Virus record (IMG/VR): IMGVR_UViG_3300008261_000025
Location: 1 to 55,644 of that record
Origin: a virus
Taxonomy: Duplodnaviria; Caudoviricetes
Direction: 5' to 3' (one strand)
DNA: 55,644 bases
This document shows, piece after piece, positions 1-54,758 of the stretch (the first letter of the stretch is position 1; each line of letters starts with the position of its first letter). The notes below the pieces were generated by a model. That model was not told the origin of the DNA, searched no databases, and saw nothing but the letters and a program-made list of their open reading frames with translations. Position numbers and translations under genes: made by a program.

Positions 1-44
1 CTAAAATAATTTAATCTTATTAATTCTTACAAAAATATATTGAT
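1..44. repeat. End overlap, identical to 55601-55644 (circular assembly)
   Basis: ctaaaataatttaatcttattaattcttacaaaaatatattgat occurs at both ends; the last CDS stops inside it. Confidence 0.95.
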
Positions 45-67
45 AATTATTTTTTATTAAATAAAAT
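40..67 (+). promoter_or_regulatory. Repeated sigma70-type early promoter, copy 1
   Basis: TTGATA-16 nt (attattttttattaaa)-TAAAAT; spacer nearly identical to six other copies. Confidence 0.75.
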
Positions 68-74
68 ATAATTA

Positions 75-140
75 TCGGACTCCACCTCTTCTCCTCTGTA
101 ATATGAGTGCTAGGCGTGGAGGCGACAATCGATTTCGATT
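75..140 (+). ncRNA. Structured leader/small RNA, copy A
   Basis: Stem ctccac(80-85)/gtggag(116-121) encloses 30 nt, then gcgac and hairpin aatcg-attt-cgatt; homologous to 48273-48342. Confidence 0.55.
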
Positions 141-161: not shown

Positions 162-314
162 ATGCTTCACGATTTTATAGTAATAATTCTTGTAAATATA
201 TTTTTATATAAAATTTTAGTTAATTGGGAATTTGGTGATACTTTTTCAATTATTTCAGTAATAGCATTGTCAATACCAATGTTTGGGCTTCTTATTATTT
301 ACAAAGATTTATAA
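162..314 (+). CDS. Small 50-aa membrane protein (not in ORF track)
   Basis: MLHDFIVIILVNIFLYKILVNWEFGDTFSIISVIALSIPMFGLLIIYKDL; A-rich leader; stop abuts next ATG. Confidence 0.6.
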   Translation: MLHDFIVIILVNIFLYKILVNWEFGDTFSIISVIALSIPMFGLLIIYKDL

Positions 315-3757: not shown

Positions 3758-3802
3758 CATTTATTTTTTATTAAATAAAATATATTTGTTGGTATTTGCC
3801 AA
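3754..3802 (+). promoter_or_regulatory. Repeated early promoter plus hairpin, copy 2
   Basis: TTGACA-16-TAAAAT (3754-3781), hairpin ttggt-attt-gccaa (3789-3802), leader aactaaaacaaaATG. Confidence 0.8.
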
Positions 3803-5593: not shown

Positions 5594-5710
5594 CAATAAA
5601 ATATATTGCAATTAAAATTTTATTTAATATTTTAATTATTGAAACTTTTTTTTCATAGGGGCTGGCAACCTGTTATCAATGATAATATAGCCTCAATAAG
5701 GTTGCAAAAC

Positions 5711-5744
5711 TGCCGTCGTATTTTTATTCATTGATACGACGGCA
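5711..5744. terminator. Probable bidirectional terminator where the two arms converge
   Basis: 11-bp stem tgccgtcgtat/atacgacggca between convergent ssb and endolysin. Confidence 0.7.
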
Positions 5745-5768
5745 AATTATTTATATTTTTATGAAGCT

Positions 5769-20834: not shown

Positions 20835-22036
20835 TGCTCTTGATATTTTAACACTTTAATAACTCCAGCAACATTACTTGTATCTTCTATGTTATTGATA
20901 TTTATAATCAAATCTTTGTTCTTTTCCGCATCAACACCATATAAATTATGTAAAATATTTATTAGGGGCATTGGATTTTTTACTTCATAATCGATTAAAT
21001 TAGGCACACTTAAAATAAGGCTATTAAGATAATTAATAGCTTGATATCTCAAGTTATGTAAATTATCAATAATATCTCTATTTTCTATTTTTGTAAAATC
21101 TATTTTTTGAAAACCGTATTCTAAATCGGCAATAGTATCATTAAGTTCTTTTACATTACTATAATCAATATCAGCGGACACTTGATAACCAAGGGTGAGG
21201 GCATTAATTCTAACAGCTTGATTAATTAATTCTTGATTATTTCTAATATCTATTGAGTTTTGAGAAATTCCAATTTGTATTCTATCTTTTTTATCAATGC
21301 CAAATAAATTTTTGCAAACTTTAAATAAATCTTTACTACTTTGATAAGCTACACTCATATTATCAAAGGCAATTTTAATATTATTAGCCAATATTTTTGG
21401 CGATTTTACTAGATTATTTGCAGAATTGATTATTTGATTAATTGAGGTTGATAAATCTGCCAAACTATCGCCAGCACCAGCAACCGCACTTGCAGTGTTG
21501 TTAATTGTTGAGGCGACTTCTGTAAATGTATCAACAGCACTGTCAAATTTTTCTTTATAATCTTTTACACTGGCGAATGCTTTGTCAAAATCATCTTCAT
21601 AATCGCCAAGAATTTTGCTTTTTAAACCAGCTAAAAAACCCTTACCTTTCTTTTTACTAACTCCATTTTGTGTAATTTCAACAAATTCAAAGTTAACATC
21701 GGTAATTCCAGCAGAAGATTGACTATCTTTAAAATCAAAACTTACAACAAAACCATAATATTTTTTATAAAATGGTAGTGATAAATACCCAGCTTTGCCA
21801 TCAGTAAAAGCTTTTTCTAATTTATCACGATTTTTATAATTTTTATTGCAATCAATAATAGCATTAACCGCAATCTTTTTTAACAAAATACCACGAGCCT
21901 CTATATGTCTTTTGTCGCCAAGTGGATATTCAAATTCGCTAAATTTTAAACCGCTTTTAATATTGCTATCTCTAAAATTAAATTTTACTCCTTTGAATTT
22001 GCTAATTTTGGCTCTTGAAGGATTGTAAATTGTCAT
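20831..22036 (-). CDS. Mu gp43-like (DNA circularisation N-terminal domain) tail protein
   Basis: FKGVKF, EFEYP..D...E..G, G.L.LP, C-terminal P...L...LYG motif. Confidence 0.8.
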   Translation of the reverse strand: MTIYNPSRAKISKFKGVKFNFRDSNIKSGLKFSEFEYPLGDKRHIEARGILLKKIAVNAIIDCNKNYKNRDKLEKAFTDGKAGYLSLPFYKKYYGFVVSFDFKDSQSSAGITDVNFEFVEITQNGVSKKKGKGFLAGLKSKILGDYEDDFDKAFASVKDYKEKFDSAVDTFTEVASTINNTASAVAGAGDSLADLSTSINQIINSANNLVKSPKILANNIKIAFDNMSVAYQSSKDLFKVCKNLFGIDKKDRIQIGISQNSIDIRNNQELINQAVRINALTLGYQVSADIDYSNVKELNDTIADLEYGFQKIDFTKIENRDIIDNLHNLRYQAINYLNSLILSVPNLIDYEVKNPMPLINILHNLYGVDAEKNKDLIININNIEDTSNVAGVIKVLKYQEQ

Positions 22037-23647: not shown

Positions 23648-24027
23648 TCTTGATAATCTAGATCTGCTAAATCTTTATCGTTTAGCGGATTTTGATAACA
23701 CTCATCTTTAAAAGCAATTTTTTTAATCAATTCATTTGCTTTATTAATTATTTCTTGATCGCCATTGAATAAGGTTAAGGCAACAGCCGAGGCAGTAATA
23801 GGCTCTTCTTTACCCCCTTCTTGCTCTTGCTTTTGTTCTTGCCTAGGGTTATTTGCTACAAACTTCATTGATTGCTGAATAAAAGTCGAGCGGAAGTAAT
23901 GGTAGTGATTTTTTATAAGATTGATATTAACCTCTTTTAGGTAAATAGTATCTATATCCTTAAAAGTATTGCTACCATTATCGTTAAAAGGCGAATTAAC
24001 CAGTTTTTTAATAAGTGTTATTTTCAT
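23560..24027 (-). CDS. Tail assembly chaperone (gpG-like); start moved to MKITLIK
   Basis: Position between tube and tape measure; L..LD..D C-terminal pattern. Confidence 0.7.
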   Translation of the reverse strand: MKITLIKKLVNSPFNDNGSNTFKDIDTIYLKEVNINLIKNHYHYFRSTFIQQSMKFVANNPRQEQKQEQEGGKEEPITASAVALTLFNGDQEIINKANELIKKIAFKDECYQNPLNDKDLADLDYQDWENIICEFLANFWVSRWLVGVNMNMKKN

Positions 24028-24031
24028 TTGA

Positions 24032-24382
24032 TTAAGCATAAAGTGGATCGGCATTAAATTCTAAGTCAACATCTTCGCCATACGATCTTTCAATCGTATT
24101 AGTTTTTAAAAAAACACCAGTAAATTTATTAGATTCGTAAGCAATAGTGTTATTATCCCCATTTGCCATTATTTGGTTTATAAGGTTATGACTTTCCACA
24201 TCGTAACGGATATTAACTTTGATTACAGAAAAAGCTTTGTCGTAATTTTTTCTTTTTACTGGTTTTCCACCGATTTGACCAGTAGCCTCTATTTCTGGAG
24301 TTCCATCTGTAAATGAAACTTTATTATTATAAGGTAATGTTTTTCCATTAACATATAAAAATGGTTTGTCTTGTATTGCCAT
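24032..24382 (-). CDS. Tail tube protein
   Basis: 116 aa directly after the sheath gene. Confidence 0.7.
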   Translation of the reverse strand: MAIQDKPFLYVNGKTLPYNNKVSFTDGTPEIEATGQIGGKPVKRKNYDKAFSVIKVNIRYDVESHNLINQIMANGDNNTIAYESNKFTGVFLKTNTIERSYGEDVDLEFNADPLYA

Positions 24383-24384
24383 AA

Positions 24385-25947
24385 TTAAGCCTCGAAGTTA
24401 GGGATTAGATTAATAATAATGCTTTCAAGCTGGGATACTATTTTTGCAGCACTATCAGCAATAATAGAGCCATTTTGCAAATTAACAATTATTGTCTTTT
24501 CAACACTTTCTTTAAAGTAATTAAGAGCCTCGTTGCTAGCAACAAGTAAAGCATAAGAACTGTTAAGGTTAGCAAGACCAGATAATTCAGTGTAGTAAGA
24601 GCATAAAGCACCAATAAATGTTTGTTTATTAACCATTTTGCGATTAGGAACTACTTGACCACTTGTTAAAGCATGTTGAGGGAAGTCTTTTTTTATACTT
24701 CTAAAGAAATACTCACGAACAATCGACATAGTATCTAAAGTATTTAAACTTTGATAAGTTTTATCAACATTGCCAGAATTGTCAGTTTTATAAGTTGTAA
24801 ATTGCTTGTTAATATCGATATAAGTATTGCTACCATTATTTTGCGGACAAGAACCGCCAGAGTTTTTTAACTCATCTCGTTCTTCACTAAGATAATTGTT
24901 GCCTATATCAATTATCGGCAATTCTAAAGCAATCGTATTGAAATAAGGAATTGCAGCATTATAAGAACCGCCTAGAGTTTCGCCATTTGACATAATACTA
25001 GAAATATTAGCATCAATAGTAAGCCTTAGCTCTCTAATTGCAGCAATTACAGAAGCTATTGTTAAATTATTTTCAAAAATAGCACCGCCTTTATGATTAG
25101 CATTGTCTATTTTTCTATTGCAAACAACATCCAAACTTTTTTGATTTAGGCTGTCAAGCAAAACATTATTATCGGCAAAAGTTTTAGTGCTTGCTATAAT
25201 GCCAACACCATCTAAAACATTATTATCAATATTTATTCTGCTTTCGGTTAGCTCGGTAAGAATAGACAAAGTATATTCACTAGGGTAAGCAATTGCTGTA
25301 TATCTTATGGCACTATTTTTGATATTATCAAATAATGTTGTTAATACAGGGTTATTGGCTCCGCCAGTCATTGCAGTAATTACAATTGACAAGCCAGCAA
25401 CAAAACCTTTATATTTTAAGCCAATAGAATTACCAACAAGACCCTTATTTACTGCGGTTAAATTAACAGTAGAAGTTGATAATGCTGCGGAAACAGGACT
25501 TAGTAAATTAGCATCAATTTTAGCTTTAAGTTTTGTTGCTATTGAAACTGCGGTGTCTCCGCTAGTAATATCAATAGTGTAAGCACCATTCTTAATGCTG
25601 TCAACATAAAAAGTAAATTGTCCGCTTTCAGTAGCAGTCCCGCTAATAGCAAAAGAACCAGTTGCACTAACTCCGCTAGCATTGTCATCAAGACCAATAG
25701 CAGAAATTTTAGGTTTTATGCTTGATATTGATAAAGTCTTTATCAATGATCGTCCAGCTATTGCAAGATGTGAGTTTTTGCCAAAGTAATTATTAAAATC
25801 TGCCTCTGTCAAGACATCTTTTAAATCACCGCTAATAGCAGAACCACCACTTGTTTTTTGCCCTACTAATAGAATTGACCTAGCATCGAGCGAGGTTGCA
25901 GTTTTTGCACTTAGTATGTTAACCGTTGCCTTAGGATATTCGCTCAT
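24385..25947 (-). CDS. Tail sheath protein (Mu gpL-like)
   Basis: LLVGQK, FG.NS.L, ATGS..I.GTATESG, LTA.NKG..GN, MTGGA.NP, TTYKTD..G..D.Y. Confidence 0.92.
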   Translation of the reverse strand: MSEYPKATVNILSAKTATSLDARSILLVGQKTSGGSAISGDLKDVLTEADFNNYFGKNSHLAIAGRSLIKTLSISSIKPKISAIGLDDNASGVSATGSFAISGTATESGQFTFYVDSIKNGAYTIDITSGDTAVSIATKLKAKIDANLLSPVSAALSTSTVNLTAVNKGLVGNSIGLKYKGFVAGLSIVITAMTGGANNPVLTTLFDNIKNSAIRYTAIAYPSEYTLSILTELTESRINIDNNVLDGVGIIASTKTFADNNVLLDSLNQKSLDVVCNRKIDNANHKGGAIFENNLTIASVIAAIRELRLTIDANISSIMSNGETLGGSYNAAIPYFNTIALELPIIDIGNNYLSEERDELKNSGGSCPQNNGSNTYIDINKQFTTYKTDNSGNVDKTYQSLNTLDTMSIVREYFFRSIKKDFPQHALTSGQVVPNRKMVNKQTFIGALCSYYTELSGLANLNSSYALLVASNEALNYFKESVEKTIIVNLQNGSIIADSAAKIVSQLESIIINLIPNFEA

Positions 25948-26130
25948 TTATTTTTCCTTTTTTGTTTTAATAATAATTTCGACAGCATTATCAATAACAC
26001 TATCTTTTAACCTATTTCGCCAAAACTGACTAGTTGGCAAATTATCAATAGCTTCAATTTCTATCTCTTGCCCCTCTGTTAATTTACCAAGCTCAGGATG
26101 TGTAAAAGGTTTTAATATTTTTATAAGCAT
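25948..26130 (-). CDS. Mu gp38/DUF2635-like small tail protein
   Basis: 60 aa, FWRNRLKD..I, immediately before the sheath gene. Confidence 0.7.
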   Translation of the reverse strand: MLIKILKPFTHPELGKLTEGQEIEIEAIDNLPTSQFWRNRLKDSVIDNAVEIIIKTKKEK

Positions 26131-26136
26131 AATTAA

Positions 26137-27180
26137 TTAGTAATTAACATTAGAATTAAAATTGTTAATAGTAAAGTTGGCATTTAAGAACGGAACAAAA
26201 TCAGCAGAATGATCTACTCCATCATTATCCTTAATTTCACCAGTAATTGCAAAATCAAAACGATGAATATAACTAGCGGCATCATAGATATCAGTTCCGT
26301 TTCCAAGATACAAACATGGTTGATATTTATCTTGTGTCAATATACTATCAAAACGATAATTTGCAATACTTTTTAATATCGGTTTCAAATAACTTCTTGC
26401 TAAGTCCGCCTCAGCACTTGCATAAGGTGAATTTTGAGTGGGTATTGCGACAAATATTGAAAATTCTAGCAAAGTTTTAAAATAGAATTGCTGATTAGTT
26501 GAATGCGAGTCGGTTGTTAAACTAGCACCTTTATCTTCTACCCTTTCATCACCAAGTAAAACAAAGATCCATTTTTGATTTGTGTCGTTTTTAAAAAATT
26601 CCATCAATCTTTCGCTACTGGCGAAATGTTGAATTCTCGAAGCTTTGCTAAAACTTATATTGCCACTAATAACATTATTTGCAATAGAATTTTCTACTGG
26701 ATAAGAAAATTTATCGTTATCTATTTTAGTTATTTGCCTAAAGCCATTAAAATAAATGTTATCATCAAGAGTGATATAGCCATTATTAGCATTACCGAAG
26801 TCATTTGAGTAAAATTCGATTGTGTAAAAATCTGGCAAAGATTTTATTGTTTTATTACCATTATAACCATCAATAGAGCAATCAGCAATAGTTATATTGC
26901 TATTAACCTCAATAAATAAATTATGATTTTCAGCTAATTTAATCGTTGCAGAACCACTAGAATAAGTAATAGATTGTATATTTACTCTTCTTTTAGCTCC
27001 TCGAATAGTAATATAATCGCCAGTTGATAAGCCGTGATTATTTGCTGTTGCAGTAATTATTGTGTTATTCTTGACAAGACTAGTAATATTAACAATATCA
27101 CTAAAGTCATCGGTAAAATTACACAACACTTGCCTAAGTCTATTGGCTATTTGATTACCTATCATAAATAACCTTTTCAA
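26137..27180 (-). CDS. Putative tail terminator/neck protein with nested beta-domain insertions
   Basis: Position after the gp10-like gene; two HGL/HNL modules, one inside the other. Confidence 0.6.
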   Translation of the reverse strand: MKRLFMIGNQIANRLRQVLCNFTDDFSDIVNITSLVKNNTIITATANNHGLSTGDYITIRGAKRRVNIQSITYSSGSATIKLAENHNLFIEVNSNITIADCSIDGYNGNKTIKSLPDFYTIEFYSNDFGNANNGYITLDDNIYFNGFRQITKIDNDKFSYPVENSIANNVISGNISFSKASRIQHFASSERLMEFFKNDTNQKWIFVLLGDERVEDKGASLTTDSHSTNQQFYFKTLLEFSIFVAIPTQNSPYASAEADLARSYLKPILKSIANYRFDSILTQDKYQPCLYLGNGTDIYDAASYIHRFDFAITGEIKDNDGVDHSADFVPFLNANFTINNFNSNVNY

Positions 27181-27625
27181 TATTAGATATCGCCAGTGCC
27201 TTTATCCTTCCTTCATTCGCTTGCATTGATCTTTGCAATGGCATTCTCGCTTTCATATTTTTTGATCCAAATTCTAAAGCTTTGCTATATTTAATAGCAA
27301 AACTATCTTTACCGCTACCCCATTCTAAAGTGCGATTGCCCCTCACAATAAAATTAATGGACTTCCTAAATTCTCCAGTGCGAATAGCAGGGGTTTCACT
27401 TTCGGCAGAAGCTCTTTTTAATTTTGGTTTTTTTAATCTGCCTCTTACTCCAAAATAGACTGGATATTCTCGCCCGCTTTTTGGTTTTTTCATATCTTGC
27501 AATAACCAGTCTCTAAGAGTTCTACCTATTTGATAAGCAGTTTTTCTGTAAGCATCCGTTACTTGCTTGTTTAATTTTTTATTCTTTAATAATGTAGCTA
27601 AATTGCCATTAGTCGTCATTTTCAT
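27155..27625 (-). CDS. HK97 gp10-like tail completion protein
   Basis: SGR.Y, ASA..E.PA.RTG..R.SI, Y...LEFG...M.AR. Confidence 0.85.
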   Translation of the reverse strand: MKMTTNGNLATLLKNKKLNKQVTDAYRKTAYQIGRTLRDWLLQDMKKPKSGREYPVYFGVRGRLKKPKLKRASAESETPAIRTGEFRKSINFIVRGNRTLEWGSGKDSFAIKYSKALEFGSKNMKARMPLQRSMQANEGRIKALAISNIEKVIYDR

Positions 27626-28014
27626 AAGCTGTTGGCTTTCAATGTTGATAAACCAAGCTCTTTTGCTCGTAGCCTTATAATGCTGTTATCTTTGTCAATA
27701 TCATCAACTAATTCTACTTTATATCTTCTATCATCTAATAATATGAATAGTTGTTGTGAAATATCAATTGCAGAATTATATCTAGTGTAAAAATCAATTG
27801 TTATGCTATTAGCAACATTTACATTATTAACAAAATCGCCATTTGCAGAAGTTTTTATCATTGCAAAAACTGTTGTCAATGTTTGATATCCAATACTAAC
27901 ATCGCCGTTAGGATTATTGTTGCCAGAACTAGAATATTTTTGTATTGTAATTTTTCTATTAAAATCAGCGACACAAATTTTTTTAATATTGTTTTTGATT
28001 GATTGGCACTTCAT
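27622..28014 (-). CDS. Head closure protein (SPP1 gp16-like)
   Basis: ITIQ, VFA.I, F..RY...I, Y.V..V.D.D motifs. Confidence 0.8.
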   Translation of the reverse strand: MKCQSIKNNIKKICVADFNRKITIQKYSSSGNNNPNGDVSIGYQTLTTVFAMIKTSANGDFVNNVNVANSITIDFYTRYNSAIDISQQLFILLDDRRYKVELVDDIDKDNSIIRLRAKELGLSTLKANSL

Positions 28015-28587
28015 TTAGATAACAGAAAAAATATTATTACTTATTATCCAAGGTTGAAATAATCTATTCGCCATATTGCTTTCTTGTGCACAATCGCCAC
28101 TATTACTATATAACCAAACAACGAAACTAATTACCGCCTCTTTTAGCGAAGGTGGAACTTGATTTGCTGAAGTGCCATAACCACTAATAAATTCTATTTC
28201 TATTGCTTGCAACCTTTCATCTGGGTTAAAATTTTCAGTAAAAACCAGCTTTGCATATTCGTTAGATTTTTCAAAATAATAATCAGCAGAATTGACGGTT
28301 TGCAAAACATTATTTTTATAATATTTGACAGAATTGATAATTTGTATTTTGCTTTTACGAAACTCAACAATACAATCAAAGTAATCTAAAAAACCAAGCC
28401 AAGTTTTATTAATTAAGTCCCGTCCAGTTATTTTCTCGCAATATTCGGTAGCAACAGTTATTAATCTAGTCAATTCAGCATCAAAATCACTATTACCAAC
28501 AAGACGAAGCCTCTCTTTTACCTCGTCAAGTGTAATAGGTTGAATTAATGCTGGTTGAATTAGAATGTAATTGCCGATTGTTTGCAT
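28015..28587 (-). CDS. Head-tail connector (gp6/gp15-like); start moved to MQTIGN
   Basis: PITLDEVKE.LR...D..L..LI..A..YCE..TGR, F..GYG, VP..LK.A. Confidence 0.88.
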   Translation of the reverse strand: MQTIGNYILIQPALIQPITLDEVKERLRLVGNSDFDAELTRLITVATEYCEKITGRDLINKTWLGFLDYFDCIVEFRKSKIQIINSVKYYKNNVLQTVNSADYYFEKSNEYAKLVFTENFNPDERLQAIEIEFISGYGTSANQVPPSLKEAVISFVVWLYSNSGDCAQESNMANRLFQPWIISNNIFSVI

Positions 28588-28588
28588 T

Positions 28589-28975
28589 TTACGAATTGTC
28601 TGCATTTTTAGGGCGGCGACCTCTTTTTGGCTTATCAATAATTACATTAGATGTATTTTCTATTTCATCTTTTTTATTATCATCTTGATCATCATCTTGA
28701 TCATCATCTTGATCATCTTGATCATCATCTTGATCATCTTGATCATCATTTTCTACATAATCTTTCGTTTGCAATTCGATTTTTAAATCTTGGGTTTCGA
28801 GTATTGCGGATGGAAAATCTTGAGTTTGATTAGCCTCAATCCCCCATTTTTCTTTTATAAATACTTCTGCTAAATCTTGATAAATTTCTACGATCTCTCC
28901 TGCTTTGTATTCCTTTAGTTTTATGCCAGTTTCATCGGCGGAAGCATTAATTGTCTTGAGAACTTTTATAAGCAT
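28589..28975 (-). CDS. Head-region protein with acidic repeat and basic AT-hook-like tail
   Basis: YKAGEIVEI..DLAE.FI N-domain; (DDQD)n; KPKRGRRPK. Confidence 0.7.
   Translation of the reverse strand: MLIKVLKTINASADETGIKLKEYKAGEIVEIYQDLAEVFIKEKWGIEANQTQDFPSAILETQDLKIELQTKDYVENDDQDDQDDDQDDQDDDQDDDQDDNKKDEIENTSNVIIDKPKRGRRPKNADNS
28680..28749. repeat. Coding tandem repeat of 9/12-nt units
   Basis: tcatcttga/tcatcatcttga units encoding DDQD. Confidence 0.85.
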
Positions 28976-28994
28976 AATTTTATTATTTAATGTT

Positions 28995-29021
28995 AAAAAA
29001 AAGGGGTAGTTTCCTACCCCT
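28995..29021 (-). terminator. Intrinsic terminator after capsid and decoration genes
   Basis: Minus strand aggggtag-gaaa-ctacccct followed by a run of T. Confidence 0.9.
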
Positions 29022-29028
29022 AAGATTA

Positions 29029-29430
29029 TTAAGCAACTGGTGCTACAATTGGTTGACCGAGAATAGCGGTAGCAGAGACAGTAGCCCCGCCACTAGTTAC
29101 CGATGTGGATATTACATCAAGTCTAGTATATCTTTTTTTGCCGACATAACCAATAGTTTTGATTGTGTTAGCAGTAGAGATTGCAGCAGCTGCTTTAGTG
29201 CCGATTAAAAAATCGTCGGCAACTGAAGTAAATGTAGCATTGTCGTCGCTTTCTTTTATGTCAATGTTAAAAGTTCCGTCAGCTCTTGCTCCTACTTCAA
29301 ATACAAAAGTTAAAGCTTCAAAGCCGATAGTATCAATCGCAATGCCGTTAGTTGTAGCATTGGCAGTAATTGTTGCGATATTGAGAGCTTTTACTGGTTT
29401 CAATATCGATTTTTGAGAATAACTAGCCAT
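29029..29430 (-). CDS. Capsid decoration/cement protein
   Basis: G..IDT.GF, G...DGT..I..ESDD, GYVG.KRY.R; directly after the capsid gene. Confidence 0.7.
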   Translation of the reverse strand: MASYSQKSILKPVKALNIATITANATTNGIAIDTIGFEALTFVFEVGARADGTFNIDIKESDDNATFTSVADDFLIGTKAAAAISTANTIKTIGYVGKKRYTRLDVISTSVTSGGATVSATAILGQPIVAPVA

Positions 29431-29456
29431 TTTGTTTTAGTTTTTAAGTTGATTAA

Positions 29457-30623
29457 TTAATTGGTTGCAATTTTGATTTTCTTGAAAGCTTCGGCTTTTT
29501 TCACAATACCACCGACACGACGGAAAAATAAGAATTGAACTTTCTGTTGAGTAATATAAGTGGTTTCGTCTCTAAAAATTGTTAAATCTTTGCGATCACC
29601 AATTAAATAATTACTAAAATCACCAAATATTATCGGGTAAGTTCCTGCTCCAATATCTGGCATATCGTTAAAAATAACATAAGGAAAACCATTAATAGTT
29701 GCTGGGTTATCAACACCGAGGTTGCCACTTTCCCAAATGTATCGTTGATTACCATCCTTTAAAGTTCTTAAAGTCGCTAGAGTTTTTCTGTTAAAAGCAT
29801 AGGTTGGTTTATAACCATCTTTTAGTTCACCAATAACTTTAATCAATGAATCAAAAGTAATTGCATTAGTATCGCCACTATTAATAGATGCGATTTGACT
29901 ATTAGTCATAAATCCATTGATATTATTACCAGCACCATCGCCATTAACAAACTGAGCACCTTCAAGTCTAGCAAACTCTTCGGCAACATCACGATTGCAA
30001 TCTCTAATAATATCAATATCAGAATCGTCAATCATTTCTTGAGTAGCGATAAAAGCAGCACCCATTTTTTTTGCTACCAATTTTAATTCACCATAAGTTG
30101 AATCGGTTATAGTCGTAGTTTGACCTTCTCCAAGCATATAAGCGGTTACCCTATTTGCAGACACTGGCATATCCATAGACTTTTTAGGTAAAGTATTCAC
30201 CCTAGCTATAGAACGGACATTGCTAATCTCAACAATATTTTTGATAATTTCATTTAACATTGTCGAACCTATTAAAAATCCACCCCCAATTTGCGAATCA
30301 GTTCTTAGATATTTTAATTCTTGTTCATTTAAAGATTTATCACCTTTAAATATATATTTTTCAAAAGCTTTAATTTGCTCTTTTGCTTCAAAAGATGCAC
30401 CATTATAATTAGATGCAGAAGTTTTATCAAGCAATTTTTGCTCCATTTCTGCTTGCTGATTTTTTTGATCGGCAATTATATTCTTTAGTTTTTGATTTTC
30501 AGCTTCTTGTTTGTCAAGTTTTTCGTTTATTGCTTTGATATTATCTTGATAAACTGCAGAATTTCTGTCTGTAAGTTCTCGAAGTGCTTTTATTGCTTCG
30601 AATGTTTGTTGTTGTTCGGACAT
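29457..30623 (-). CDS. Major capsid protein, HK97 fold
   Basis: N-terminal coiled-coil delta domain, GGFL, F.NG.G, LKD...RYIW, I.G.P, FGDF. Confidence 0.95.
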   Translation of the reverse strand: MSEQQQTFEAIKALRELTDRNSAVYQDNIKAINEKLDKQEAENQKLKNIIADQKNQQAEMEQKLLDKTSASNYNGASFEAKEQIKAFEKYIFKGDKSLNEQELKYLRTDSQIGGGFLIGSTMLNEIIKNIVEISNVRSIARVNTLPKKSMDMPVSANRVTAYMLGEGQTTTITDSTYGELKLVAKKMGAAFIATQEMIDDSDIDIIRDCNRDVAEEFARLEGAQFVNGDGAGNNINGFMTNSQIASINSGDTNAITFDSLIKVIGELKDGYKPTYAFNRKTLATLRTLKDGNQRYIWESGNLGVDNPATINGFPYVIFNDMPDIGAGTYPIIFGDFSNYLIGDRKDLTIFRDETTYITQQKVQFLFFRRVGGIVKKAEAFKKIKIATN

Positions 30624-31999
30624 TGTAAGTTTTGTTTAAGTAAATTTAATTCAATCAAAATGCACTCTTCGGCAATTTGATCTTCCAGTTGTTTTTCAGC
30701 ATCCCGCTGGTTTTTTACTTCAACATCCCGTTGAAAAATCTCTTTTGTTTTTGCGACAAGCATCTTAGCTTCTTGATTGCTAAATTTTGTTGACAATGCT
30801 TTTTCTAAGCTTCTCACGCTATCAATATTATCAATAAAATCTTTTTTTAGTGGTGAAACTAAGCTTTCGTCATCAAATTCTTTTGCCATTTTACTATATA
30901 TTTTATTAATTTTATTAACTATTTCTTGCTTATCTTCTTCTGGTATATCTAACCCACCCCTTGCACCTTGCAATGCACCAGCAATAGAAAAAATCGCTTT
31001 AGGAATTATCCTAGGTTTGTTGTCAATGATATCAACAAAAGGCATCTTATAAGCGGTAAAATTATCCTCGTTAGGCTCATCAAAATACATAAAATATTTG
31101 TAATAATCGGCGGAAGGTTCTTCTTGAGAATTAGTAAATTCTTTTATATTTGCTATTGCTTTGTCGCCATCCCATTCAGTATCACGATCAGCAAATGAAA
31201 AACCAAGCTTAGGATCAACCATTTTGTAAGATTGCAAAACTGCCTTATCGTTTGCAGGAAAGGTGACCAATGATATCTCATACAAATCAATTTCTTTTAA
31301 AGTTCTGATCCCAGTTTTGTCATTAAATCCTGCAAGCTCTACTCTGTAGCCAATAGAAAAAGTATCTAGCGAACCTACTTTTATTTGTGGCATAAATGTA
31401 TCTCTTACCCTAGCATCATCTTTTGGCATCAATGCAGTAAATTCAAGACCAGTGTCGGTTTCTTTAATATTGGTTATTTTACCAATAGGAGCTTCTCGCA
31501 TATTATGTTGCCATAAAAACTTAGGAGTTCTTTTTTTTAATGATTTTTTAAAAGCTCCTTTTTCCACTACATCATCGACAAAATCGACATTGCCAAAAGT
31601 TGAGGCTAGTCCTGTTATCGTAAAGTAATTATCTTGGCTATCTTCTTTGAATTCAAGAGTGCCTTCAAATGATTTGTATTGCATTAATAATGATTTTTTG
31701 TTATTATGTTCCTCTAAAATTCTTTCAGCCCACTCAATACCTTCTATACCACCCCATAATTTAACAGCAATAGTGCCAGCAGTAGGGCCGCCATCGGCTT
31801 CTTTTTTATCAGGGCGGTAATTCTTAATATGTCTTTTAAATTTAGCAATCCTGCCTATTGTATCCCAGCTAAGATCAGCCCCGTTAGATAAGTCAATGGC
31901 TCTCTTGACACCTATTGCAGTGCCACCACGACCCCACTTTTTTCTAAGTTCTAAACCTTGTCTTGCTATCTCTTGCACTCGTTCTGGAGCTATCGGCAT
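30590..31999 (-). CDS. HK97-family prohead protease with extra N- and C-terminal domains
   Basis: G.AS.FG.VD..D.V.KGAF, LWQH, FSIGY, LYEISLVTFPAN. Confidence 0.92.
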   Translation of the reverse strand: MPIAPERVQEIARQGLELRKKWGRGGTAIGVKRAIDLSNGADLSWDTIGRIAKFKRHIKNYRPDKKEADGGPTAGTIAVKLWGGIEGIEWAERILEEHNNKKSLLMQYKSFEGTLEFKEDSQDNYFTITGLASTFGNVDFVDDVVEKGAFKKSLKKRTPKFLWQHNMREAPIGKITNIKETDTGLEFTALMPKDDARVRDTFMPQIKVGSLDTFSIGYRVELAGFNDKTGIRTLKEIDLYEISLVTFPANDKAVLQSYKMVDPKLGFSFADRDTEWDGDKAIANIKEFTNSQEEPSADYYKYFMYFDEPNEDNFTAYKMPFVDIIDNKPRIIPKAIFSIAGALQGARGGLDIPEEDKQEIVNKINKIYSKMAKEFDDESLVSPLKKDFIDNIDSVRSLEKALSTKFSNQEAKMLVAKTKEIFQRDVEVKNQRDAEKQLEDQIAEECILIELNLLKQNLQCPNNNKHSKQ

Positions 32000-32004
32000 A
32001 TTTT

Positions 32005-37366: not shown

Positions 37367-37448
37367 AAATAGCCGTTGACTTTTTATTTTTTATTACATA
37401 AAATATCTTTTGTCAAGAGTTCTTGACAATTACTAATCTAACTAAAAA
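37367..37448 (+). repeat. 82-bp direct repeat, left copy (promoter copy 3 plus hairpin)
   Basis: 81/82 identical to 41448-41529; TTGACT-17-TAAAAT and ttgtcaag-agtt-cttgacaa. Confidence 0.95.
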
Positions 37449-41449: not shown

Positions 41450-41529
41450 ATAGCCGTTGACTTTTTATTTTTTATTACATAAAATATCTTTTGTCAAGAG
41501 TTCTTGACAATTACTAATTTAACTAAAAA
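41448..41529 (+). repeat. 82-bp direct repeat, right copy (promoter copy 4 plus hairpin)
   Basis: Matches 37367-37448; begins within the SNF2 stop codon. Confidence 0.95.
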
Positions 41530-43321: not shown

Positions 43322-43429
43322 TTGACATTTATTTTTTATTATATAAAATATTTTTTATAGTATATCGGATTTACCGACATACTGCTAACAAATTAATTTC
43401 AACTATTAGGAAAAATCTAATAGTTGAAA
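43322..43429 (+). promoter_or_regulatory. Repeated early promoter copy 5 with two hairpins
   Basis: TTGACA-16-TAAAAT; agtat.tcgg-attta-ccga.atact (43359-43383); tttcaactattag/ctaatagttgaaa (43397-43429). Confidence 0.8.
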
Positions 43430-43720: not shown

Positions 43721-43861
43721 ATGAAAAAACTAATTTTTATAACAATTTTTACAATTTTGCTAGATGGGAAGCCTTACGATGATGGTCTTGATTGTCTAGG
43801 AGGGGTTTGCACCGCAAACAAAATAGAATGCAACGAAACTAGATGTTTGTATTCACAATAA
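43721..43861 (+). CDS. Small exported 4-Cys peptide (not in ORF track)
   Basis: MKKLIFITIFTILLDGKPYDDGLDCLGGVCTANKIECNETRCLYSQ. Confidence 0.55.
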   Translation: MKKLIFITIFTILLDGKPYDDGLDCLGGVCTANKIECNETRCLYSQ

Positions 43862-44928: not shown

Positions 44929-45393
44929 ATGAAAAACACAGAATTATTAGATAAAAATGGCAAAGAAATAGAGTTAAATCATATCGTTAAAATTTCCGGA
45001 GAATTTAAGCATATATTTTTCTTTGAAGGCTGTTTTGGCTTTATGATGGGTGTAAATAGTATAGCCAGAGACGATCAAAAATTAAAGAAATATGGAATTG
45101 ATGCTTTTGTGCCAATTTCAGGAGCAAGAGCAAAAAATATGGAAGTTATTGGGACTTGGACTGGACTAAAAGATAAAAATGGAAATTTAATTTTAAAAAA
45201 TGATATTGTTAAGATTAATAACAGAAATTTTATTATATCAATAAAAGAAAAGCGAAGACTTTCTTTTAAAGAAGTAGATAACTTTTACAACGTAATAGAA
45301 ACAAATCTTGTTATGATAACCATTAAATCTGATACAGATATTGAAATAATAAAATCAAATTGTGGATTTTTAATTGCAGAAGATAATAATTGA
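44929..45393 (+). CDS. Protein with two YopX-like repeats
   Basis: TELLDKNGKEI...IV and TGLKDKNG..I..NDIV; one of few genes with a GGAG SD. Confidence 0.65.
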   Translation: MKNTELLDKNGKEIELNHIVKISGEFKHIFFFEGCFGFMMGVNSIARDDQKLKKYGIDAFVPISGARAKNMEVIGTWTGLKDKNGNLILKNDIVKINNRNFIISIKEKRRLSFKEVDNFYNVIETNLVMITIKSDTDIEIIKSNCGFLIAEDNN

Positions 45394-45417
45394 CAAATAA
45401 AAAAGACGATTTATTAT
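45390..45417 (+). promoter_or_regulatory. Candidate promoter for the RNA region and replication operon
   Basis: TTGACA-16-TATTAT. Confidence 0.5.
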
Positions 45418-45453
45418 ATTAAATGCTATTATTAAAAGGCATCAAAAAAAATA

Positions 45454-45526
45454 GGCAGGAACGCCCCAAAGTAGGGTATAAGGTTATGCAAAAACTTTAT
45501 TAATGGTTCGACTCCACTCCGGGCCA
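45454..45526 (+). tRNA. Degenerate tRNA-like element (GCA, Cys-type loop) inside a 22-bp stem
   Basis: T-loop tgg-ttcgact-cca; ataaggtt-atgcaaa-aactttat arm; ccc/ggg D-like arm; irregular acceptor stem. Confidence 0.45.
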
Positions 45527-45565
45527 CAAATGTTTTTTTGATGCTTTTTAATAAATTAATAGCAA

Positions 45566-45702
45566 GACTAGTAAGCGTCGGATTTAAGCGTGGCGTCCGT
45601 AGGGATTGCAGGCTACAAATTATTTTGTAGCAAACTCGCTCCGAGGACTAGTCGAAAAATTATGACTGTGGCAAGGTTATCGGAGGCACCAATGCCACAG
45701 TC
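45566..45702 (+). ncRNA. Multi-stem structured RNA upstream of replication genes
   Basis: gactagt/actagtc, tcgga/tccga, gctacaaa/tttgtagc and gactgtggca/tgccacagtc stems. Confidence 0.55.
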
Positions 45703-48075: not shown

Positions 48076-48237
48076 ATGTTTTGGAATTATTTAACTTTGC
48101 TTTTTATTGCCTTAAAACTTACCAATTATATTGACTGGTCATGGTGGCTAGTATTATCACCGATGCTAATTTTGATTAGCTTTATATTAATGTTGGTAAT
48201 ATTTTATTTAATTCTTGATTTTATTAGCAGAAAATAG
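48076..48237 (+). CDS. Small phage membrane protein (not in ORF track)
   Basis: LTLLFIALKLTNYIDWSWWLVLSP motif, a pattern common in phage TM proteins. Confidence 0.75.
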   Translation: MFWNYLTLLFIALKLTNYIDWSWWLVLSPMLILISFILMLVIFYLILDFISRK

Positions 48238-48265
48238 TTGACATTTATTTTTTATTAAATAAAAT
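48238..48265 (+). promoter_or_regulatory. Repeated early promoter, copy 6
   Basis: TTGACA-tttattttttattaaa-TAAAAT, identical to copy 2. Confidence 0.8.
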
Positions 48266-48272
48266 ATATTTT

Positions 48273-48342
48273 AGTGAACCCCGCCTCTTCCATTAGCTCT
48301 GTCTAGTTTGCGGTGCGGGGGCGACTTTCAAGATTTCTTGAA
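48273..48342 (+). ncRNA. Structured leader/small RNA, copy B
   Basis: ccccgc(48279-84)/gcgggg(48315-20) encloses 30 nt, then gcgac and ttcaag-attt-cttgaa. Confidence 0.55.
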
Positions 48343-48367
48343 TTATTAACTTAAAACTAAAAACAAA

Positions 48368-49555
48368 ATGACAGAAAATAAAGGTTTAACTACCGAACAA
48401 AAAAATAATCGCAAAAGTTTTATAGGAGCAAGCGACATTTACTCACTAGTAAGGCAATATTGTCAAGAAGAACTAGTTGAGTTATCAAAAGAGGCAGTTG
48501 ATGTCTTTTTAATAGTAAAAAATACTAGAGAACAATTTGCAATTGATCCAAAAGAAAAGAGTTTTAAAACTTGCTTTGAAACTTTGGCAGATAAAAAGAA
48601 TATTGACAGAAGAACTTTAAGAGAAGATATGGACTTTTATTTAAGCTTCGGTTTGCAAATGGAAGACGAAATTCGTAAATATTGCGGCGAAAGATTTATT
48701 GTTAGCAATGATAAGAATTTTATTGACACTGGCAAAAAATGGATTGGCTATTCGCCAGACGGCTATGTATTTGATAATTATAATAGTGGCAAGAAAGGGG
48801 TTCTTGAAGTAAAAACAATGAGCAATTGGGGAGCTAAATCATCGCTAATGCCGACCAAATATTATATGCAGGTGCAATATCAAATGTTTTGCTCTGGACT
48901 AGAATATGGCTTGCTATTAACTTGTAAATTCGATCAAAATTTTCGAGATGATATTTACAGCGAAGATCAAATTAAGGCAATTTTACACGAGACTATTATT
49001 GATAAAGATAAAGCAATAAAAAACGGTGATAATCATTTAGCTAATGCTTTAAATGATAAAATAATCGCATTATTGGTTAAATTTCAAATAGAAGTTTTAG
49101 TTATTGATAGAGATAATAGATTAACTTCAATTTTTGAAAAAACCATCGATTGTTTTGATAGAGATTTTCTTGGTAAATTTGCAATGATAAATAGATCGGC
49201 ATTAATCGAAGACCACAATATTGATAACTTTTTAATCGAATTTACCGATTACATAAAAGATTATGATGATGCCGAGAAGGTAAAAGCTAGTAGATTGCTA
49301 AGATTTATGCAGCAAAGCGGACAATTAGACGGAGTTGATAGAATAAATGATATAAATTTAATAGACAAGTTAAATCGTTTTGTTTTGGTAAAAAAAGAAG
49401 CTAAAAAATATGCAGAAGAGGAGGAGTTATTAGCTAATCAAATAAAATTTTATGCTATTAATAAATTCTATAATATTCTTGAATGGGAAGGTAAAACAAT
49501 GCAAATTCGAGTGGATAAAAGAGGTTTTGTGTCGCTAAAATTAAAAGGAGAATAA
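48368..49555 (+). CDS. YqaJ/lambda-Exo-like recombination exonuclease
   Basis: R..FIGASD, G..ME, SPDG, LEVKT, YY.QVQ.QM. Confidence 0.85.
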   Translation: MTENKGLTTEQKNNRKSFIGASDIYSLVRQYCQEELVELSKEAVDVFLIVKNTREQFAIDPKEKSFKTCFETLADKKNIDRRTLREDMDFYLSFGLQMEDEIRKYCGERFIVSNDKNFIDTGKKWIGYSPDGYVFDNYNSGKKGVLEVKTMSNWGAKSSLMPTKYYMQVQYQMFCSGLEYGLLLTCKFDQNFRDDIYSEDQIKAILHETIIDKDKAIKNGDNHLANALNDKIIALLVKFQIEVLVIDRDNRLTSIFEKTIDCFDRDFLGKFAMINRSALIEDHNIDNFLIEFTDYIKDYDDAEKVKASRLLRFMQQSGQLDGVDRINDINLIDKLNRFVLVKKEAKKYAEEEELLANQIKFYAINKFYNILEWEGKTMQIRVDKRGFVSLKLKGE

Positions 49556-49585: not shown

Positions 49586-49635
49586 TTGACATTTATATTT
49601 TATTTAATAAAATATAAATGTCAAAATTTCTTGAT
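49586..49635 (+). promoter_or_regulatory. Repeated early promoter plus hairpin, copy 7
   Basis: TTGACA-16-TAAAAT; gtcaa.attt.ttgat. Confidence 0.7.
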
Positions 49636-52584: not shown

Positions 52585-53157
52585 ATGACTAAATCGATTA
52601 AAATTCTTTTAATTTTTGCAATTGCTTTATTGCCAAATATTGCTTTTGCAACAAATATTGGTATTGGAACTAATATGTTTTATGCAAAGATAAATGACCC
52701 AGATTTACGATTTGCAGAAGATTTAGAGAATGTTAGAGACCCTATCAATGCAATTCGCAATGTTAATTTAAGCCTATCAAATAATTATGGTAGAGTTATT
52801 TATGGCATTGCTAGCAATAGGCTACTTAATGCACCAGCAAATAGAATTGTTCTTGATAATAAAAATAGAGAATATCAATACAGTAGCCGAGCAATACTCG
52901 ACAGCTTGGCTATTGGATATGCAACAAGTAAAACTACTGCAATTAGTTTTTTGCTTGGCAATTTACAGCTAAGGCAAGATTTAAACCGGGGTAATTACCA
53001 TAAAAGAAGCGTTGAAAATGCAATAATTTATGGTTTATCTTTTAGTAAAAAAATCAAAAATAACTCTTTGTCGCTAATTTTATTAGCACCGTCGCAAGCG
53101 ATTAAAGCGGAATACGGAATTGGCATTAGTTATTCTTATCAAATAAAAATTTTATAA
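52585..53157 (+). CDS. Putative outer-membrane beta-barrel protein
   Basis: Signal peptide ending AFA; alternating amphipathic strands; C-terminal YGIGISYSY strand. Confidence 0.65.
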   Translation: MTKSIKILLIFAIALLPNIAFATNIGIGTNMFYAKINDPDLRFAEDLENVRDPINAIRNVNLSLSNNYGRVIYGIASNRLLNAPANRIVLDNKNREYQYSSRAILDSLAIGYATSKTTAISFLLGNLQLRQDLNRGNYHKRSVENAIIYGLSFSKKIKNNSLSLILLAPSQAIKAEYGIGISYSYQIKIL

Positions 53158-54041: not shown

Positions 54042-54328
54042 TGAAAGAGCGAGATAAAATTTTTAAAATTGCCAAAAAAGCAATTTTTAAAGCGGCAAAT
54101 AAGGCTTTAATTGATCATAGCAAATTTTTAAAAGATCAGGATAAATATATATTGATGCAAAAAAAACCAGAATTTCATTATTATCTTGATTTATTAATAG
54201 ATAAATATTATGAAAAATATAAAAACACAAAAATTTTGGATTTTGCAATCCAGACTTTTGTGTATAATTATTCATTACCCGAAATAGCAAAAAAACTAAA
54301 ACAAATTCAAAATGAAAAAACAAATTAA
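54041..54328 (+). CDS. Hypothetical protein
   Basis: 95 aa; TAATG coupling with the upstream gene. Confidence 0.6.
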   Translation: MKERDKIFKIAKKAIFKAANKALIDHSKFLKDQDKYILMQKKPEFHYYLDLLIDKYYEKYKNTKILDFAIQTFVYNYSLPEIAKKLKQIQNEKTN

Positions 54329-54758
54329 AATTAATTTACACGAAATTTATAATGGAAAATTACATTATGAAACAACAGGTTCTGCAGCATTTGACCTTAA
54401 GTATTGCGGGGAAGAACCTGTCATAATTAAGCCAAATGAAAGAAAACTTTTGCAACTAGGCATAAAATCAGAATTTGATAAAGAATATTGTGTTAAAATT
54501 TTGCCAAGAAGTGGATTGGCAATTAAGCAAGGAATTACAGTTCTTAATGCACCCGGACTTATTGATAGTGATTATCGTGATGAGTGGAAAGTTATTCTTA
54601 TTAATCAAGGAAGCGAAGATGTAGTAATCAATAAAGGTGATAGAGTTTGCCAAGCACAACTTGAAAATGTTATTAGAGCAACTTTTGATTATGTAAAAGA
54701 AGAGGAGCTAAGCACTAGCAAAAGAAAAGGTGGATTTGGATCGACTGGCATAAAATAA
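54312..54758 (+). CDS. dut: dUTPase (trimeric)
   Basis: AAFDL, PRSGLA, GLIDSDYR, RVCQ, R.GGFGSTG. Confidence 0.95.
   Translation: MKKQIKINLHEIYNGKLHYETTGSAAFDLKYCGEEPVIIKPNERKLLQLGIKSEFDKEYCVKILPRSGLAIKQGITVLNAPGLIDSDYRDEWKVILINQGSEDVVINKGDRVCQAQLENVIRATFDYVKEEELSTSKRKGGFGSTGIK

What the first reader, a model, noticed from the sequence alone, without database searches (positions are those of the whole stretch)
75..140. Paired structured RNA motif (75-140 and 48273-48342) with compensatory changes and a fixed 30-nt inner region
Seen: two GC-rich inserts lie between the repeated promoter and the ATTT hairpin. The stems ctccac/gtggag and ccccgc/gcgggg differ by two compensatory pair changes. 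Both enclose exactly 30 nt that start with ctcttc and contain ctctgt and tgc, and both are followed by gcgac. The downstream genes are unrelated. I do not recognise the family. Inference: a conserved scaffold displaying a semi-variable segment, e.g. a trans-acting sRNA family. The pyrimidine-rich CUCUUCUCCUCU of copy A is anti-Shine-Dalgarno-like, while most genes of this phage lack SD sequences. A cis-regulatory leader is the alternative.
Basis: partly seen in the sequence, partly recalled or inferred. Interest (0 to 1): 0.75.

Follow-up and report, generated by a model that had tools for sequence, protein, structure and literature searches.

The report
Promoter-coupled phage leader RNA hairpin
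Two early promoters of this uncultured freshwater phage, and one promoter in its closest known relative, are each followed at once by the same small folded RNA hairpin of an undescribed family, which probably controls the fate of its own transcript, though nothing about its function has been tested.

Summary
Two GC-rich segments, 74-127 and 48273-48326, sit 12-13 nt after the -10 box of 2 of 7 repeated sigma-70-type promoters. They lie in a complete 55.6-kb, 29% GC phage genome.

Both fold as one hairpin. It has a 6-bp outer stem with two compensatory changes, two more pairs, a pyrimidine-rich internal loop and a short apical helix.

A model built from the two copies found a third copy in the only syntenic relative available (IMG/VR contig G001, TerL 75% identical). 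That copy also lies 12 nt after a TTGACA-17-TAAAAT promoter. All 11 pairs hold in all three copies, four of them with double changes. Six G-U cells point to the plus-strand RNA.

There is no Rfam match, no similarity to HK022 put or lambda nut, and no further member in about 3.3 Mb of related loci or in two collection-wide pattern scans.

The "fixed 30 nt" and the anti-SD look are not family-wide. Copies A and B lie in 5' UTRs without terminators, so a classic trans sRNA is unlikely there. The relative's copy has no gene behind it.

Best guess is a cis-acting, factor-recognised leader element (put/nut-like); a 5' stabiliser is the main rival. The scan has noted analogous, unrelated promoter-coupled leaders in other phages.

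The parts
40..67 (+). Promoter of copy A (TTGATA-16-TAAAAT), one of 7 copies of the repeated early promoter
   Evidence: Repeat family D2, regex listing, promoter scan 10 of 12 matches
74..127 (+). Copy A of the leader hairpin (SL1). The predicted transcript start is A74. Outer stem 80-85/116-121, pairs 87-88/113-114, apical helix 94-96/105-107, CTCTTC 86-91, GCGAC 122-126.
   Evidence: Sequence; fold; model match 65.6 bits; pair counts. The start site is inferred from the -10 box, not measured.
127..140 (+). Second small hairpin after copy A (AATCG-ATTT-CGATT). A hairpin of this kind follows all 7 promoter copies, so it is not specific to the motif.
162..314 (+). First ORF behind copy A (50 aa). 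It is followed by a 190-aa ORF and by D12-class and C5 DNA methylases up to 2948.
48238..48265 (+). Promoter of copy B (TTGACA-16-TAAAAT)
   Evidence: 11 of 12 matches
48273..48326 (+). Copy B of the leader hairpin (SL1). The predicted start is A48273. Outer stem 48279-48284/48315-48320, pairs 48286-48287/48312-48313, apical helix 48293-48295/48304-48306, GCGAC 48321-48325.
   Evidence: Sequence; folds; model match 64.9 bits; unchanged in contigs of two other studies
48327..48342 (+). Second small hairpin after copy B (TTCAAG-ATTT-CTTGAA)
48368..49555 (+). YqaJ-type exonuclease gene, the only gene between copy B and the next promoter copy at 49586

Best explanation
Copies A and B are two members of an undescribed, narrowly distributed family of promoter-coupled leader RNA hairpins.

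The element is the first ~54 nt of the transcript made from a subset of the phage's sigma-70-type early promoters. It folds into:
- an 8-pair lower helix with a 1x1 mismatch;
- a 5x5 pyrimidine-rich internal loop with conserved unpaired bases (C13, U16, U17, C18 of the model);
- a short apical helix.

I think it acts in cis on its own transcript. It would be recognised while being made, by the transcribing RNA polymerase or by a phage or host factor. Transcription from these promoters would then differ from that of the other five, by becoming resistant to pausing or termination. This is the way HK022 put and lambda nut sites work.

Shown: the sequence, its fixed place after the promoter, its conservation and covariation in a relative, and the strand.

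Inferred: that it is transcribed, where the transcript starts, that a factor binds it, and the effect on elongation.
For: 1. Fixed position. The outer stem starts 12, 13 and 12 nt after the TAAAAT box in A, B and the relative's copy C. All three model matches begin with A at the predicted +1.

2. Independent third copy. Model R1, built from A and B only, found L203:16501-16558 (22 bits, E 0.011) among 81 loci and 1.03 Mb of TerL relatives. The hit lies in the one syntenic relative, on the early strand, behind a TTGACA-17-TAAAAT promoter.

3. Structure. 33 of 33 cells pair. 4 of 11 pairs carry changes on both sides. 6 of 500 shuffles reach the observed values. Slid controls pair in 42-66% of cells. 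RNAalifold predicts the same 11 pairs on its own.

4. Strand. 6 of the 33 cells are G-U, which would be A-C mismatches on the minus strand or in a DNA cruciform.

5. Conserved unpaired bases. The CTYTTC tract and the internal-loop bases are kept, while the promoter spacers of the two phages are not alike. This suggests recognition rather than mere stability.

6. Analogy with put. HK022 has two put RNAs of about 70 nt with two stem-loops, downstream of the two early promoters, and putL lies directly after PL (passages of PMC9378689). Here SL1 plus the following hairpin span 67-70 nt from the predicted start.

7. Context of copy C. It faces the terminator hairpin of the convergent late operon and has no ORF behind it. 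A read-through element would make sense there; a translational element would not.

8. Free start site. The A-rich leader and the start codon stay unpaired in folds of the whole 5' UTR, so the hairpin does not occlude translation initiation.
Against: - No convincing plus-strand intrinsic terminator lies behind A or B. One weak site sits inside a gene at 1038-1050, and none lies between 48326 and 49586.
- The transcription units are short. Copy B precedes a single gene before the next promoter.
- No sequence or structure similarity to HK022 put or lambda nut. The best model scores on those regions are 10.5, 9.4 and 7 bits, none at the annotated nut sites.
- No N- or Q-like protein was recognised among the 20 neighbouring proteins scanned.
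- There are only three sequences. The alignment was fitted to the model, and the structure was derived from two of the three.
- Folding energies are not exceptional.
- I have no expression data.
Confidence: 0.3

Rival explanations
1. 5'-terminal stabiliser. The hairpin buries the 5' end of these very AU-rich mRNAs. It would slow 5'-end-dependent attack (RppH and RNase E or a similar nuclease), giving the methylase operon and the exonuclease gene longer-lived messages than the other early units.
For: From the predicted start, A has 1 unpaired 5' nucleotide and B has none, because 3 extra pairs close the base (UCG/CGA in A, AGU/ACU in B). The element stands at the very 5' end in all three copies. 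5'-terminal base pairing and 5' stem-loops are known stabilisers in E. coli; I saw this only in the reference list and passages of the review PMC3997798 (Bouvet & Belasco 1992; Emory et al. 1992).
Against: A plain stabiliser needs no conserved unpaired bases, yet C13, U16, U17 and C18 are invariant in 3 of 3 copies. Copy C has 6-7 unpaired 5' nucleotides in its fold and no mRNA behind it. The start sites are predicted, not measured.
Confidence: 0.25
2. Small regulatory RNA. SL1 is a scaffold, and its variable inner part pairs with targets in trans. The RNA would either be released from the 5' UTR by processing (A, B) or made as a separate transcript (C).
For: Copy C has its own promoter and no ORF behind it within the 240 nt to the contig end. 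A converging gene ends at L203:16643. The inner 30-35 nt are the most variable part; 14 of 30 positions are identical between A and B.
Against: No terminator follows A, B or C on the plus strand. A and B run straight into coding genes. Within the phage, the longest stretches complementary to the motifs are single 11-mers, at 21352 for A and at 43809 (inside a small ORF) for B. I ran no shuffle control for that count, so I cannot say whether it exceeds chance. The host is unknown, so host targets could not be searched.
Confidence: 0.15
3. Operator for an RNA-binding protein or a processing enzyme. A phage or host protein would bind the internal loop to time translation or to cleave the leader. 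This would be temporal control of the methylase and exonuclease genes.
For: The unpaired bases are conserved within a conserved helix frame. Only 2 of 7 promoter units carry the element.
Against: The hairpin ends 35-42 nt before the start codon and leaves the leader unpaired. Copy C has no gene to regulate. No RNA-binding protein was recognised nearby.
Confidence: 0.12
4. A DNA-level or selfish element: a small GC-rich palindromic insert (a mobile GC cluster), a protein-binding inverted repeat, an origin or nick site, or a minus-strand terminator or insulator that shields the promoter from incoming antisense transcription.
For: These are GC-rich islands in an AT-rich genome, absent from 5 of 7 promoter copies. 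The minus-strand folds of the wider regions have slightly better z-scores (-2.6 and -2.3). A mirror-image promoter at 49624-49597 points towards copy B.
Against: Six G-U cells become A-C mismatches on the other strand. Compensatory changes keep a hairpin, not a protein's half-sites. The distance from the -10 box is the same in three copies at three different genome positions, which is not expected of random insertion. No U-run follows the stem on the minus strand.
Confidence: 0.08

Closest known systems
HK022 putL/putR RNAs (protein-independent processive antiterminators)
   Same: There are two copies per genome, each behind an early promoter. One put RNA starts directly at the promoter. Each is about 70 nt with two stem-loops, and the copies are alike but not identical (passages of PMC9378689). 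Here SL1 plus the next hairpin span 67-70 nt from the predicted start.
   Different: There is no detectable sequence or structure similarity. Models R1 and R2 score at most 10.5 and 9.4 bits on HK022 24000-32000. The second hairpin here follows every promoter copy. No downstream terminators were found. The host and the phage type differ. The put alignments in that paper's supplement could not be read.
Lambda nutL/nutR (boxA plus boxB, with N protein and Nus factors)
   Same: Two sites lie behind the two early promoters. A C/U-rich tract sits upstream of a small hairpin. Lambda boxA reads CGCTCTTA in both sites, and the motif has a CTCTT core at the matching place in A and B.
   Different: Only 5, 5 and 4 of 8 boxA positions match. 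The boxA G, whose mutation weakens NusB:NusE binding (passages of PMC2800207), is absent at the aligned position. The apical loops share no boxB-like sequence. The tract is enclosed in a larger stem. No N-like protein was found. Model R2 does not hit the annotated nut sites.
5'-terminal stabiliser stem-loops of bacterial and phage mRNAs (ompA and papA type)
   Same: A hairpin at the extreme 5' end of an mRNA, with few or no unpaired 5' nucleotides in A and B.
   Different: These are a functional class, not a sequence family. Here unpaired bases are conserved, and one copy precedes no mRNA.
Promoter-coupled structured leader RNAs noted earlier in this scan in E. coli and Salmonella phages (AI notes e1-309917, e1-133166, e1-198842, e1-154232)
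   Same: The same idea: paralogous folded RNAs directly behind strong phage promoters, with no Rfam family and put as the closest analogue.
   Different: Those are about 110 nt and occur in hundreds of genomes of cultured phages. This one is 54 nt and known from three copies in two uncultured freshwater phages. I did not compare the sequences.

Membership tests
HK022 put RNA | Two copies per genome, each downstream of an early promoter, one of them directly after the promoter | tested here: met
   A and B start 6-7 nt after the -10 box of two copies of the early promoter. The feature is taken from passages of PMC9378689.
HK022 put RNA | About 70 nt folded as two stem-loops | tested here: inconclusive
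   SL1 plus the next hairpin span 67-70 nt. However, that second hairpin follows all 7 promoter copies and differs in copy C.
HK022 put RNA | Sequence and structure similarity to putL/putR | tested here: not met
   R1 and R2 with filters off on HK022 24000-32000 score at most 10.5 and 9.4 bits, on a plain hairpin. That this stretch holds both put sites is inferred from the gene order; they are not annotated.
HK022 put RNA | Suppresses terminators and pauses downstream; binds the beta' zinc-binding domain | not testable with these tools
   The terminator scan found no convincing plus-strand site behind A or B. Rho-dependent sites and binding cannot be judged from sequence.
Lambda-type nut site | boxA sequence (CGCTCTTA in nutL and nutR) | tested here: not met
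   Ungapped comparison gives 5 of 8 (A), 5 of 8 (B) and 4 of 8 (C) matches. The G is absent at the aligned place in all three.
Lambda-type nut site | boxB hairpin with a conserved purine-rich pentaloop, bound by an N protein | tested here: not met
   The apical loops have different lengths and share no sequence. R2 does not hit the annotated nut sites. No N-like family appears among the 20 proteins scanned; small fast-evolving proteins could be missed.
Any Rfam family | Match at or near a gathering score | tested here: not met
   The whole window at gathering thresholds gives only DUF3800-VII, at 45566-45658. Sensitive scans of 1-400, 48150-48450 and L203:16400-16794 give only chance-level rows.
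Terminator-ended trans-acting sRNA | Own promoter and an intrinsic terminator at the 3' end, with no ORF | tested here: not met
   A promoter is present. There is no terminator after A, B or C. A and B continue into genes. Only C lacks an ORF.
5'-terminal stabiliser stem-loop | Base pairing at or within a few nucleotides of the 5' end of an mRNA | tested here: inconclusive
   From predicted starts there are 1 (A), 0 (B) and 6-7 (C) unpaired nucleotides. The starts are not measured, and C precedes no mRNA.

The most novel reading that the evidence does not exclude
SL1 is a new class of nascent-RNA element that binds the host RNA polymerase directly, put-like and protein-independent, in a non-lambdoid, AT-rich freshwater phage. 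It would have evolved independently of put. Copy C would drive read-through antisense transcription into the late operon as a timing device.
Probability: 0.15. Interest if true: 0.7.

Novelty: new variant of a known kind. Interest (0 to 1): 0.42.

Why it matters
Cis-acting RNAs that reprogramme RNA polymerase or protect a message from its first nucleotides are known from very few phages, mainly lambdoid ones.

This is a small, tractable 54-nt element with a clear structure and conserved unpaired bases. It has a natural control built in: five sister promoters in the same genome lack it. That makes a good test case for how uncultured, AT-rich aquatic phages give individual early operons a different fate.

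If it proves to bind polymerase or an elongation factor, the put/nut principle would extend beyond enteric lambdoid phages. If it is only a stabiliser, it is an ordinary device in a new sequence guise.

The family is tiny so far: three copies in two genomes.

Tried and rejected
**Searches for more members that found none**
- Promoter pattern in viral contigs: 0 stretches.
I checked 122 loci by script, and none other than the window's two copies has a fully paired stem in an AT-rich setting.
- YqaJ protein in viral contigs: no relative. YqaJ alignment A2 in metagenome contigs: no relative. ERF protein in viral contigs: none.
- Beta-barrel protein alignment in viral contigs: only G001.
- SSB alignment: 80 loci, 1.18 Mb, best model hit 14.2 bits.
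- TerL alignment in genome contigs: 80 loci, all at 50% identity or less. Model R2 on 100 sources and 1.65 Mb finds only A, B and C, plus one 15.7-bit row.
- Strict pattern (TAAAAT, 10-15 nt, stem, CTYTTC, 20-34 nt, stem) in viral contigs: only G001.
- The same pattern in metagenome contigs: 54 stretches. I inspected 41 and the other 13. None has a -35 box at the right spacing in an AT-rich setting. R2 scores at most 23.8 bits (L308, in 59-72% GC DNA) and 18.6 bits (L328, a terminator-like hairpin). I take these as chance, but they were pre-selected by the pattern.
- The L135 hit (19.3 bits) lies in GC-rich coding DNA and was dropped as chance.

**Other checks**
- Phage collection: no DNA relative, no YqaJ relative. 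The best TerL match is 47% identical (Nitratiruptor phages).
- The protein search for YqaJ gave one 92% identical protein (P0001), but its contig could not be fetched.
- Sequencing runs: no RNA holder is listed. Parts without cover say nothing.
- In G001, the homologue of the 190-aa gene behind copy A sits inside an operon, with no promoter or insert.
- blastn-short of the copy C region against the window gave only chance-level words.
- Rejected ideas: a peptide (only A has an ATG); a tRNA or tmRNA piece (ARAGORN finds none); a CRISPR-repeat mimic (only B's stem recalls type I-E repeats, and that is recall, not a test); a ribozyme (no Rfam hit).
- I did not see the supplements of PMC9378689 (put alignments) or PMC2800207 (boxA constructs).

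Full report
**Setting.** The window is a complete IMG/VR phage record: 55,600 bp plus a 44-nt terminal overlap, with direct terminal repeats. It is 26-36% GC. A plus-strand early arm runs from about 37.4 kb across the ends to 5.6 kb, and a minus-strand virion arm fills the rest. Near-identical DNA occurs in lake and freshwater metagenomes of 13 studies. Of the 67 genes I picked from the ORF list, 59 have no Shine-Dalgarno-like 4-mer, and their leaders are 56% A. A repeated promoter, TTGAC(A/T)-16/17-TAAAAT with a conserved spacer, occurs seven times on the plus strand: at 40, 3754, 37376, 41457, 43322, 48238 and 49586. Each copy is followed by a small hairpin or palindrome centred on A-TT-T.

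**The observation.** Only the promoter copies at 40 and 48238 carry an extra GC-rich segment between the promoter and that hairpin.
- Copy A: CTCCAC (80-85), then 30 nt, then GTGGAG (116-121), then GCGAC.
- Copy B: CCCCGC (48279-84), then 30 nt, then GCGGGG (48315-20), then GCGAC.

The stems differ by two compensatory changes. In an ungapped alignment, 29 of 54 columns are identical. Three more helices are in register: pairs 14-41 and 15-40, and an apical helix 21-23 with 32-34 that has one further double change. All 22 cells pair, but that structure was derived from these two sequences.

The segments are the only intergenic GC-rich islands of the genome. A covariance model of the two (R1) finds nothing else in the window above 9.7 bits with filters off. 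Folding energy by itself is unremarkable (z -1.0 to -1.9). Contigs of two other studies cover copy B without a difference in the motif, so it is not an assembly artefact. Because those contigs are near-identical, they carry no covariation information.

**Known families.** Rfam gives no match to either copy at gathering or permissive thresholds. ARAGORN finds no tRNA.

**Relatives.** The phage has almost no relatives in the collections.
- The promoter pattern, the YqaJ exonuclease and the ERF protein found nothing.
- TerL found 80 loci, of which seven are 63-75% identical.
- One of those, G001 (a 30.8-kb contig, TerL 75%), is syntenic over the whole early arm. Its own promoters are followed by the palindrome ATCGAAATTTCGAT, close to the hairpin behind copy A.

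**The third copy.** R1 run on 81 TerL loci (1.03 Mb) gave one notable hit: L203:16501-16558, plus strand, 22 bits, E 0.011. It lies in G001 on the early strand, 12 nt after the -10 box of a TTGACA-17-TAAAAT promoter (11 of 12 matches). In A and B that distance is 12 and 13 nt.
- Its outer stem is CTCCAT/GTGGAG.
- Its inner part starts with CTTTTC and is 35 nt long.
- It is followed by ACACAC, not GCGAC.

All 11 pairs hold in it. Across the three copies, 33 of 33 cells pair. Four pairs show changes on both sides and four on one side. Six of 500 shuffles reach the observed values, and slid controls pair in 42-66% of cells. RNAalifold predicts the same 11 pairs. Six cells are G-U, so the structure belongs to the plus-strand RNA.

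Three caveats apply: there are three sequences, the alignment was fitted to the model, and there is shared descent. Even so, finding a third copy at the same distance from a promoter is independent support that the element is real and coupled to the transcript start. That find came from a model which knew nothing of promoters.

**No further members.**
- R1 on 80 SSB-anchored loci (1.18 Mb): best hit 14.2 bits.
- R2 (three sequences) on 100 sources (1.65 Mb), including 80 loci of bacterial genomes: only A, B and C, plus one 15.7-bit row.
- A strict pattern including the -10 box found only G001 in IMG/VR.
- The same pattern found 54 stretches in metagenome contigs. None has the promoter context, and the best scores 23.8 bits in GC-rich DNA.

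The family is therefore known from three copies in two phages.

**Context.** In the window, both copies are the start of 5' UTRs. SL1 is followed by the small hairpin, an unpaired A-rich leader and the start codon 35-42 nt later.
- Behind A: a 50-aa ORF, a 190-aa ORF and two DNA methylases.
- Behind B: a YqaJ exonuclease, then the next promoter.

No convincing plus-strand terminator follows either copy. In G001 the homologue of the 190-aa gene has no promoter or insert. Copy C sits at the end of the early arm, behind thyX and small ORFs. It has no ORF downstream, and it faces a hairpin that reads as the terminator of the converging late operon. The contig ends 240 nt later.

**Mechanism.** The fixed place at the transcript start, the conserved unpaired bases (C13, U16, U17, C18) and the three different genomic contexts fit best with a cis-acting module that something recognises as the RNA emerges.

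The closest known systems are HK022 put and lambda nut. HK022 has two put RNAs of about 70 nt with two stem-loops behind the two early promoters, and putL lies directly after PL (passages of PMC9378689). Membership fails for both:
- The models score at most 10.5 bits on the HK022 immunity region and do not hit the annotated lambda nut sites.
- Lambda boxA (CGCTCTTA) matches only 4-5 of 8 positions and lacks the G that matters for NusB:NusE binding (passages of PMC2800207).
- No N-like protein was seen.

The lack of downstream terminators and the short units also weigh against antitermination. I hold it at 0.3. A 5' stabiliser is at 0.25: the 5' end is paired in A and B, and the class is known from passages and the reference list of PMC3997798. 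An sRNA is at 0.15, a protein operator at 0.12, and DNA-level readings at 0.08.

The motif and its covariation are real, and it is not in Rfam. The 30-nt constancy and the anti-SD look are not family-wide, and a free-standing sRNA is unlikely for the window's two copies.

**Earlier notes of the scan** (for this genome; for others). They describe analogous promoter-coupled leader RNAs in other phages, on other DNA and with other sequences. I did not test them, and they are not evidence here.

Noticed in passing
window 45566-45658 (+): This matches Rfam DUF3800-VII RNA (RF02967) at 37.4 bits, against a gathering score of 36.2. No DUF3800 gene was seen among the proteins I scanned; the next genes are a 64-aa ORF and a DUF6291 protein. 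A TTGACA-16-TATTAT promoter lies upstream at 45390-45417.
   Followed up: partly
window 45429-45554 (+): A tRNA-like stretch with a TTCGACT T-loop-like sequence and a GGGCCACA end lies between the 45390 promoter and the DUF3800-VII RNA. ARAGORN calls neither a tRNA nor a tmRNA.
   Followed up: no
window 127-140, 3789-3802, 37411-37428, 41492-41509, 43336-43352, 48327-48342, 49621-49634; L123 3460-3480 and two more: Every copy of the early promoter is followed by a short palindrome or hairpin centred on A-TT-T, in several sequence classes. TCAAGA..TCTTGA occurs four times and ATCGA..TCGAT once. The relative G001 has ATCGAAATTTCGAT behind three promoters. One copy (3789-3802) needs a G-U pair, which hints at an RNA hairpin rather than a DNA operator.
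   Followed up: partly
window 49586-49624: The promoter at 49586 is part of a near-perfect inverted repeat. A mirror-image TTGACA-16-TAAAAT promoter on the minus strand (49624-49597) points back into the exonuclease gene, giving possible antisense transcription towards copy B.
   Followed up: no
window 5647-5748: Between SSB and the converging late genes lies a GC-richer structured stretch (GCAACCT ... AGGTTGC). It is followed by a 10-bp hairpin, TGCCGTCGTA/TACGACGGCA, that looks like a two-way terminator. This is the position that corresponds to copy C in the relative.
   Followed up: no
window, all genes: Only 8 of 67 picked genes have an SD-like 4-mer. The leaders are 56% A and often read AACTTAAAACTAAAAACAAAATG. 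Similar leaders with 4-6 differences occur on other contigs of the same lake metagenomes. The host is unknown. The sigma-70-type promoters and a secreted 190-aa protein with a C-terminal aromatic end (52585-53157, conserved in G001) suggest a Gram-negative host.
   Followed up: partly
L203 15070-15837: The relative G001 carries a thyX (Thy1) gene just upstream of copy C. The window has a dUTPase at 54312-54758, but no thyX was seen among the proteins scanned.
   Followed up: no
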